A stretch of DNA of 64,000 nt. It comes from Eledone cirrhosa. Lineage: Eukaryota. Below the pieces are notes generated by a model. The model was not told the DNA's origin. It ran no database searches and was given only the letters and a program-made list of their open reading frames with translations. The stretch spans positions 17,298,001 through 17,362,000 of the forward strand of contig OZ024746.1 of the NCBI GenBank assembly GCA_964016885.1, in the 5' to 3' direction. This document shows, piece after piece, positions 49,718 through 51,937 of this stretch (positions are counted from its first letter, which is position 1; every line of letters begins with the position of its first letter). Made by a program: the position numbers and the translations under genes.

Positions 49718-51937
49718 TTATACAGTTTTTCTTTGTTCGTCATGGGACCTATGATAGAAAATAAAACTAATGGTTGGATGCCATGCCATTTTTAACATAG
49801 TGTCCACCACTCCTTTCTTGTCAGTACCATGATGCCATTGTGAAAGATCAGAATTACAATTAGAATTATCTGGCGGACTTTTCACTTGGATGTTGTTAAC
49901 ACATCGACGACACTTGAATTTATCGTGTGTGTCACTTTTAGTGTCTTCATTCAGTCGGAACAAATGTCTTAAGTCCTCTCGACTAAAATGTCTTTCTACC
50001 TCTTCGTTATCAACCACACAGCTACTTAATGCCTTTTTGTGAGCCTGTCGCTGAAAAATCATCTCTTCTATTGAGCCAGTCGCTACAAGTCTGTAAATAA
50101 AACACTGCTTTTTTTGTCCATCACGCCAGCATCTAGCCATAGCTTGATCGTCGTTAGCTGGATTCCAGTCAGGATCAAACATAATTAAACGATTAGCACC
50201 AATTAAATTAAGGCCACATCCACCAGCTTTACTGCTGAGCATGAAAATAAATTCTGTACTGATTGGTTCATTGAATTTTTCAACAATCTTTGCTCGTTTC
50301 TTCACCGACATCGTTCCATCGAGTCGGACCCAGGAATATTTTCTCTGTTTACATAAATTTTCAAACAAATCTAATGTATTTGTGTAATTAGACACCAACA
50401 CTACTTTATCATTGGTGTTTGCTTTTATCACAGCTAACAGGTAGTCTAACAAGAGGAATTTACCTGATAATTCCGGCAACAAAACTTTCGAGTTGTAATT
50501 TCTAGGAAACACTTGTAGACAGTCTTCAAAGCCTTCCACCTGTTCAACACATTTCTCATAAATTAAATCTGGATGATTACACAGTTTTTTCAATGTGGTG
50601 ATAGCAGCAAGTGAACTTGCAGTCATTTTACCATCTCTGTTTTCAATTAAAGCCTGAGCAGCTTTAGATTTCACAAAGCGTTTGTATAATTCTGTTTGCA
50701 TTGGTGTCATATTACAGCAGATAACCTGCTCAATTTTCACGGGAAGATATTTGGTTAGAAGTTCTTGCGTACGACGTATAATACATCTGTTGACTGTTTC
50801 TAGTAATTCCTTGAGTTTTTCTTGACCCTTTTGTTGATCAGCCTCTGAAGCATCTGCATCCCTTCCTCGCAGAATGGGATTCTCGAAATTCTTCTTGAAT
50901 TCCTTAGCATTTCCCAAAACTCCTTTATTGACAAAATGGACTAAACTGAAATACTCCAGCAGATCATTCTGGATCGGAGTGCCGGACAAGAGTAGTCTTT
51001 TCTCGACATTAAGTTTGTCCAATGCCTGGTAGGTTTGGTTCTGTGAGTTCTTCAGACGATGTCCTTCATCACAAATTATCAGACCAACGCTTCCTTGGTG
51101 AAGAACTTCTGCATGAAGTCGGAATGTCTCATAGGAAATTATTAACACATTGTTTGTGATTCGATAACCTTGTGATCGCATGAAGTGACTTAAATTGCGA
51201 TCAATGTCACTCTTACTACCTGAATCCACTACTAATGGGTTCATTTTACCTGGTAGCCATTTATTGATTTCGTTGGCCCAGTTCTTGACCAAACTGCTGG
51301 GAGACACTATGACAGCCTTGTTAACCATCGGACAACAGTCGGGACTCTGACGAAGCAGTGTCCACATTAGCGTAATACATTGTAACGTTTTTCCAAGTCC
51401 CATTTCATCAGCCATTATACAACCATAACTGTTCTCTATTTGTTGCCCAGTCACACAGTCGTACATAAACTTAACCCCTTCCCTTTGATGAGGACGGAGC
51501 ACTTTAGACAAAAGAGGGTCCACTACCACGTGGACAGGTAATTTCTCAGGGTTCATTTTCACCAGCTCGTGAGCTGATAGTTCAGGTGGAGAATACAGGA
51601 TCAACGCCCCTTCTTCGTCGGGGTCGTGCAAAGAATTCCGAGTCCCTTGTCTGCGAACTCCCAGTTTTTTACTAGAGAGAGTGGCACCTGTATAGTTTAG
51701 AATCGGTATTCGGAATGGCTTTGATAAGATCTTGCGGATAAAAGATTCGTGTTCTGAGTGATTGGGGGTAGTGTGTATCGTCAATTTATTGTTGTGGTCG
51801 AGGGGTGTCAAAGCTGGGCGTTGTAATGAAGATGATGTATCAGGAGATCGACATCTTTTAAACCGAGCGAAGTTGTTAGTGTCGTCAAGCTTACGTTTAC
51901 AATTCGATACTTTACTTGGGGCTAAACTGCGCCGCAT
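49718..51937 (-). CDS. RAD54L: DNA repair and recombination protein RAD54-like, 739 aa, single coding exon
   Basis: Starts MRRSLAPS (conserved RAD54 N-terminus; ATG at 51937); SNF2 motifs [58 protein letters not shown]-terminal HDKFKCRRC; uninterrupted ORF. Confidence 0.97.

What the first reader, a model, noticed from the sequence alone, without database searches (positions are those of the whole stretch)
49718..51937. Complete intronless RAD54 nested antisense inside a CEP135 intron
Seen: an unbroken 739-codon RAD54 ORF with all SNF2 motifs lies on the - strand in the intron 49371-57242, between two phase-0 CEP135 exons. Its stop is ~350 nt from the upstream CEP135 donor. Known: RAD54L is multi-exon in vertebrates, and the host gene here is intron-rich. 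Inference: this is a functional retrogene that may have replaced the parental locus. It pairs a homologous-recombination gene with a centriole-assembly gene in a sense/antisense nest, giving 2.2 kb of complementarity between RAD54 mRNA and CEP135 pre-mRNA.
Basis: partly seen in the sequence, partly recalled or inferred. Interest (0 to 1): 0.8.

Follow-up and report, generated by a model that had tools for sequence, protein, structure and literature searches.

The report
Octopod RAD54 retrogene nested inside CEP135
The only RAD54 DNA-repair gene found in this octopus-type genome has an intact coding region with no introns and sits backwards inside an intron of the centriole gene CEP135, so it is likely an old reverse-transcribed copy that replaced the original gene, a known kind of event that we did not find reported for RAD54.

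Summary
Observation confirmed. 49718-51937(-) is an unbroken 739-aa RAD54L orthologue inside a phase-0 GT-AG intron of CEP135. Six searches of the own genome find no second RAD54L; the nearest paralogue is an old multi-exon gene, likely RAD54B. Outgroup genes keep the introns: a bivalve locus has 12, another animal 18, and all 12 match in position and phase. RAD54 and CEP135 have neighbouring accessions on same-length contigs in 3 of 3 annotated octopods and lie apart in 4 of 4 other molluscs checked that way. A full-length sister-clade ORF on a 425-kb contig suggests the loss predates the octopus-squid split. The protein is strongly constrained (4 of 360 versus 56 of 366 changes). An unlabelled, spliced-looking run covers most of the ORF; strand unknown. 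Verdict: likely an orphan retrogene that replaced its parent. This is a new member of a known kind. Nothing supports a role for the antisense complementarity. The scan has noted nested antisense retrogenes of other genes before, not RAD54.

The parts
49718..51937 (-). RAD54L coding sequence, one exon, 739 aa
49630..49635 (-). candidate poly(A) signal AATAAA, 83 nt past the stop, followed by a GT/T-rich stretch
   Evidence: contigs of run X4 reach 49655; the cleavage site is inferred
51938..52423 (-). 5' flank covered by one contig of the RNA-like run X4 (51957-52423). It holds 10 upstream ATGs, a decayed dispersed repeat (52012-52222) and a candidate 5'-UTR intron (GT at 52422-52421, AG at 52063-52062), untested
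52380..52440 (-). candidate RAD54 promoter patch: CpG o/e about 1.2 (52300-52599) against 0.35 for the window; YY1-like CCGCCATATT at 52431, TTTGCCCGCC at 52426, DRE-like TATCGATA at 52383 (motif names recalled)
   Evidence: the YY1-like motif is reached in 2 of 200 shuffles, the DRE-like in 21 of 200, i.e. chance level; motifs were chosen after looking at the sequence
49096..49370 (+). CEP135 exon upstream of the host intron
   Evidence: an X4 contig enters it from another exon (record 11)
49371..57242 (+). host intron of CEP135, GT-AG, phase 0, 7872 nt
57243..57368 (+). CEP135 exon downstream of the host intron
15319..63380 (+). CEP135 host gene: 16 exon-sized matches covering aa 1-849 of the O. 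sinensis protein; the gene continues past the window
54938..55963 (-). LINE-type reverse transcriptase fragment in the same intron, likely a later and unrelated insertion
   Evidence: RVT_1, E 2e-17

Best explanation
This is the genome's only detectable RAD54L gene, intact and without coding introns inside a CEP135 intron, and it is likely an orphan retrogene: a spliced RAD54 mRNA was likely reverse-transcribed and inserted antisense into this intron in a cephalopod ancestor, and the intron-rich parent was likely lost afterwards. It is predicted to be transcribed from its own promoter inside the intron (about 52.4 kb, minus strand) and polyadenylated about 100 nt past the stop. It is predicted to do the ordinary RAD54 job, an ATP-driven dsDNA translocase that helps RAD51 in homologous recombination (established knowledge). 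Inferred: the RNA route, loss of the parent, the promoter, strand of expression, and an age before the octopus-squid split.
For: (1) All ancestral coding introns are gone. L028 has 18 GT-AG introns over aa 64-673. The bivalve locus L030 (groups with Mactra, support 100) has 12 over aa 219-673, and all 12 match L028 in position and phase. L037 (8 of 8), L027 (4 of 4), L031 (3 of 3) and L024 (2 of 2) share them too. 8 of 8 short genomic fragments, nearest to bivalve, gastropod or Lingula RAD54, start at the aa-673 junction. (2) Relocation. Argonauta CEP135 is GAB1601649.1 and RAD54 GAB1601650.1; O. bimaculoides XP_014768657/660; O. sinensis XP_029644182/186; each pair is on contigs of identical length. 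Liolophura, Mactra, Sinanodonta and Potamilus have them on different-length contigs with distant accessions. (3) No parent. Five protein searches and one DNA search of G000 find only this locus above about 70% identity. Other SNF2 exons at 35-57% were found, so RAD54L exons of 54-97% should have been. The C3 paralogue is as far from bivalve and frog RAD54L as from this gene. (4) Constraint against O. bimaculoides: 4 of 360 changes in conserved columns versus 56 of 366 in variable ones, p=1.4e-13. (5) Run X4 has exon-bounded contigs over CEP135 and four error-free contigs over RAD54 and its flanks. (6) CEP135 and the C3 paralogue keep their introns, so the loss is gene-specific.
Against: No poly(A) tract or target-site duplication remains (longest A run 5), as expected for an old event, so the RNA route is not shown directly. 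No parental remnant or donor locus was found. Nesting in other octopods rests on accession order and contig length, not DNA. The sister-clade evidence is one unnamed 741-aa protein (P0253) on a 425-kb ENA contig. Of 11 long-contig ENA CEP135 entries examined, 10 are single-exon read-throughs but 1 (P0034) is full length, so spliced calls cannot be ruled out. X4 is not on record as RNA and contigs give no strand. Own-genome searches score only the best candidates and the assembly may be incomplete. RAD54 also looks intron-poor in other lineages (P0199, P0152), so intron loss is not unique to this one. dN/dS was not computed.
Confidence: 0.8

Rival explanations
1. Introns were lost in place by repeated gene conversion with cDNA, and the compact gene later moved into the CEP135 intron by a DNA-level event (transposon capture or rearrangement).
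For: RAD54 appears intron-poor in other animals: a 676-aa ORF on a 66-kb contig in the Dimorphilus cluster (P0199), a 749-aa ORF on an 11-kb contig (P0152), and different intron sets in Daphnia-like loci. No retroposition scars remain. Nesting in the sister clade was not shown, so intron loss and the move could be separate events.
Against: It needs at least 18 precise losses, including the 5'-most introns, plus a separate move. One retroposition explains both. Neighbouring and paralogous genes keep their introns.
Confidence: 0.13
2. It is a recent processed pseudogene or redundant copy, and the real intron-rich RAD54L is missing from the assembly or from the search.
For: Genome searches are floors; the first used a stricter first look.
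Against: The annotated RAD54L of three other octopods sits next to CEP135 and is 91-92% identical. Changes avoid conserved columns. No second CDS match.
Confidence: 0.03
3. The nest is functional: RAD54 transcription or its mRNA regulates CEP135 by polymerase collision or RNA pairing, or both share a cell-cycle chromatin domain, and this is why the arrangement is kept. This can hold together with the retrogene origin.
For: In human cells RAD54L and CEP135 are both in a 268-gene p53/DREAM/RB-repressed list (PMC6753476, table passage) and in an S/G2-M list (PMC6788831, passage). The adjacency is kept across octopods.
Against: A single-copy essential gene inside a host intron cannot easily leave, so retention needs no function. 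Antisense overlap is common among retrocopies (PMC7290577). No expression data bear on it here.
Confidence: 0.12

Closest known systems
Orphan retrogenes / retrogene replacement (Ciomborowska 2013, PMC3548309, passages; Carelli 2016, PMC4772013, passages)
   Same: Single-exon copy, parent absent in the lineage, multi-exon orthologues in outgroups, strong purifying constraint.
   Different: Mollusc rather than mammal; a core recombination gene; nested antisense in another gene; dN/dS and parent remnant not shown here.
Amphioxus and Ciona SYCP1 retrogene replacement (PMC5803294; abstract and section 12 read)
   Same: A germline/meiosis-related gene that became a single coding exon at a new site and lost its parent; may have gained new 5' UTR structure.
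   Different: SYCP1 sits between genes and shares a bidirectional promoter with CHIC. RAD54 sits inside an intron and seems to need its own intronic promoter.
RAD54L (SNF2-family translocase; PDB 1z3i)
   Same: Collinear over aa 92-736 at E=0, all motifs present, falls within the molluscan RAD54L tree.
   Different: No coding introns against at least 18 in outgroups; 15 of 360 outgroup-conserved positions differ against 0-2 in three other molluscs, and 13 in the sister-clade protein.

Membership tests
RAD54L orthologue | Collinear SNF2 ATPase with the RAD54 N-terminal segment and C-terminal CRRC domain | tested here: met
   Rad54_N below its curated cut-off (23.7 against 27.5 bits)
RAD54L orthologue | Nearest named relatives are RAD54L and it groups with them | tested here: met
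   no RAD54B reference was in the tree
RAD54L orthologue | ATP-dependent translocase activity with RAD51 | not testable with these tools
   inferred from family knowledge
Retrogene | Precise loss of the parental coding introns | tested here: met
   18 of 18 intron positions of L028 and 12 of 12 of bivalve L030 are absent, with a collinear protein
Retrogene | New location unrelated to the parental locus | tested here: met
Retrogene | Poly(A) remnant and target-site duplication | tested here: inconclusive
   no A tract and no flanking direct-repeat pair; expected to have decayed at this age
Retrogene | Transcribed on its own strand | tested here: inconclusive
   RNA-like contigs of X4 cover most of the ORF, but the run is unlabelled and unstranded
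Retrogene | Purifying selection | tested here: met
   protein level only, p=1.4e-13; dN/dS not computed, no orthologous DNA
Orphan retrogene | No functional parent in the same genome | tested here: met
   within the limits of the search and assembly
Orphan retrogene | Expression pattern recapitulates the parent | not testable with these tools
   no labelled RNA run was listed
Nested antisense gene | Lies wholly in a spliced intron of a host on the other strand | tested here: met
   5 of 5 CEP135 proteins join the flanking exons; canonical splice sites; no own-species junction read seen
Regulatory cis-antisense pair | Co-expression with an effect on host splicing or level | not testable with these tools
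   no stranded or multi-tissue data

The most novel reading that the evidence does not exclude
All coleoid cephalopods run homologous recombination on a RAD54 retrogene that landed in a CEP135 intron before octopuses and squids split. The nest is kept because it couples a recombination gene and a centriole gene in one cell-cycle-regulated unit, through shared chromatin or convergent-transcription interference.
Probability: 0.12. Interest if true: 0.72.

Novelty: new member of a known kind. Interest (0 to 1): 0.42.

Why it matters
It adds a core recombination gene to the short list of conserved genes replaced by a retrocopy, and extends that list to cephalopods. If shared by squids, it is a clean rare genomic change that can be scored in Nautilus, Vampyroteuthis, cirrates and decapods, and a dated case of an old retrogene that stayed without coding introns. 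Practically, nested RAD54 may be missed by annotation (no named decapod RAD54 among the 9 members of the sister cluster), and edits to this CEP135 intron would hit RAD54. No new mechanism is shown.

Tried and rejected
No RNA holder was listed, which is no evidence either way. The own-species junction 49370/57243 could not be viewed in reads. Run X5 (organism B) covers the CEP135 exons at about 92% identity but only scraps of RAD54; a filter can leave records out, so this hole was not used, and it gave no dN/dS. L025 looks intron-free after aa 402, but its near-identical sister L043 has introns there, so it may be a partly spliced RNA and was not counted as intron loss. L020-L022 are uninterrupted but short, possibly transcript contigs, and were not counted. 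The spliced aligner (my own simple script) was run on 9 of 30 loci; the Daphnia-like L016 gave a different intron set. The careful tree did not finish; the quick IQ-TREE and FastTree trees disagree on where the cephalopod clade attaches, but both hold it and its two halves at 99-100. The DRE-like motif is at chance level. An 'out of Z chromosome' idea found no usable linkage data in PMC10925132 (passages) and is untested. Literature: RAD54+intronless (15 papers listed), retrogene+octopus+cephalopod (8), RAD54+CEP135 (11), RAD54+cephalopod (1) and nested genes+cephalopod (0) gave no listing describing this locus. The Sepia genome paper's held main text has no RAD54 mention. No supplements were read, and subscription papers are not covered. 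No structure or complex prediction was run.

Full report
Observation. The minus strand at 49718-51937 holds a 739-codon ORF without an internal stop. It aligns end to end with RAD54-like chain 1z3i (aa 92-736, E=0, 1068 bits; the next family, ERCC6, scores 268 bits) and carries all SNF2 motifs plus the C-terminal CRRC. Its nearest database cluster (91%) holds the annotated RAD54-like proteins of Octopus sinensis, O. bimaculoides and Argonauta. The first CEP135 exon is 78% identical to all three, so the genome is an octopod; I do not name it further.

Host gene. Five cephalopod CEP135 proteins (two Octopus, Argonauta, two Logan proteins, one of them clustering with Sepia pharaonis) map on the + strand; the O. 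sinensis protein gives 16 exon-sized pieces from 15319 to 63380. In 5 of 5 the residue after the piece ending at 49370 begins the piece at 57243. The intron has AAG|GTGAGT and TTTCTTTCTTAG|ACA ends, phase 0. The RAD54 stop is 347 nt from the donor. A junction read from this species was not seen.

Is there a parent? The whole protein, four quarters of it and the DNA were searched against G000. The N-terminal 150 aa have no other significant match, no other match covers the C-terminal domain (aa 670-739), and the CDS has no other DNA match. Exons of other SNF2 genes were found at 35-57%. The same segments of true RAD54L orthologues are 54-97% identical, so a parent should have been seen. The closest paralogue, spread over about 190 kb of C3, is 36-74% identical to this protein and similarly distant from Mactra and Xenopus RAD54L. 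Its NDLQEFF motif fits RAD54B (recalled). These searches are floors and the assembly may be incomplete.

Were introns ancestral? A metagenome scan with the last exon gave 30 loci; 9 were spliced-aligned with my own script. L028 has 18 GT-AG introns between aa 64 and 673. L030, which groups with the bivalve Mactra at support 100, has 12 between aa 219 and 673, all matching L028 in position and phase. L037, L027, L031 and L024 share 8, 4, 3 and 2 of them. L016 (Daphnia-like) has a different set, and L025/L043 are ambiguous. Separately, 8 of 8 short proteins called on genomic contigs begin with unrelated sequence and join RAD54 at aa 673. Their best matches are mussel-like (5), heterodont-like (1), caenogastropod-like (1) and Lingula-like (1).

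Position and age. In Argonauta the two genes have consecutive accessions (GAB1601649/650); in O. bimaculoides and O. sinensis they are 3-4 apart. Each pair lies on contigs of identical length. In Liolophura, Mactra, Sinanodonta and Potamilus the accessions are far apart and the contigs differ; contig lengths also differ for Branchiostoma, Ptychodera, Antedon and Glandiceps. This is indirect but consistent with a move in cephalopods. A sister clade of unnamed proteins (78-80% identical, support 99-100), probably squids and cuttlefish (inference), includes P0253, a complete 741-aa protein on a 425-kb ENA contig. ENA entries here mostly behave as unspliced ORF calls (10 of 11 CEP135 entries examined end in intron read-through; one is full length). 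So the sister clade is likely intronless too, which would place the event before the octopus-squid split (roughly 270 million years, recalled; one search found no paper for the figure). Whether it is nested there was not testable.

Is it functional? Against O. bimaculoides 4 of 360 outgroup-conserved columns differ and 56 of 366 variable ones (Fisher p=1.4e-13); against P0253, 11 of 360 and 129 of 366. No run is on record as RNA. Run X4, however, has contigs whose matches start or stop at CEP135 exon edges, as spliced RNA would, and four error-free contigs over 49655-50833, 51082-51664, 51683-51833 and 51957-52423. The strand is unknown. An AATAAA with a GT/T-rich downstream stretch lies 83 nt past the stop, and a CpG-rich patch with a YY1-like motif lies near 52430. 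Ten upstream ATGs and a decayed repeat in the 5' flank hint at an unannotated 5'-UTR intron, so 'intronless' is established for the coding region only.

Mechanism. One retroposition explains both the clean loss of at least 18 introns and the new address. Germline-expressed genes are thought prone to it (PMC5803294, section 12, on SYCP1). Loss of the parent then left the copy under full constraint, as in mammalian orphan retrogenes (PMC3548309, PMC4772013, passages). No poly(A) or duplication scar remains, so in-place intron loss followed by a DNA move stays possible (about 0.13). The antisense pairing idea has no evidence here. Human RAD54L and CEP135 are both cell-cycle genes, which may have helped the copy get expressed, but 1301 human retrocopies overlap a gene on the opposite strand (PMC7290577).

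Novelty. The five searches listed under Tried and rejected found no paper on this locus, though NCBI already annotates both genes in octopods. The scan's own notes hold no RAD54 case but three vertebrate nested antisense retrogenes (unchecked), which shows the class recurs. Verdict: real, well supported, a new member of a known kind; interest 0.42.

Noticed in passing
proteins P0034/P0295 (ENA contigs of 568 kb and 62 kb): Full-length 1261-aa CEP135 only 53% identical to its nearest bivalve-type relatives, among ENA entries that are otherwise single exons: possibly an intronless CEP135 in another mollusc, or a spliced gene call.
   Followed up: partly
proteins P0152 (ENA, 11-kb contig) and P0199 (Logan, 66-kb contig, Dimorphilus cluster): Long unbroken RAD54 ORFs (749 and 676 aa) outside cephalopods suggest independent intron loss or retroposition of RAD54 in other animals.
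   Followed up: partly
window 52012-52222: Decayed dispersed repeat (70-90% to dozens of genomic places) inside the RAD54 5' flank.
   Followed up: no
window 54938-55963 (-): 341-aa LINE-type reverse transcriptase fragment, flanked by copies of a roughly 130-nt repeat also found at 52725-52875.
   Followed up: no
window 56747-57124: 168-nt inverted repeat, 98% complementary, with a 42-nt spacer, ending about 120 nt before the CEP135 acceptor; could form a long hairpin in the pre-mRNA.
   Followed up: no
window 60301-60522: The Octopus CEP135 match runs 14 codons past the boundary seen in Argonauta and the two Logan proteins (60480) and overlaps the next exon's residues; probably alignment read-through, possibly an alternative donor.
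   Followed up: no
G000:C3:288.53-288.72 Mb (L046-L048): Multi-exon RAD54B-like paralogue with very long introns.
   Followed up: partly
L025 and L043: Near-identical RAD54 sequences with different apparent intron content, plus introns at aa 391, 512 and 612 not seen in L028 or L030.
   Followed up: partly
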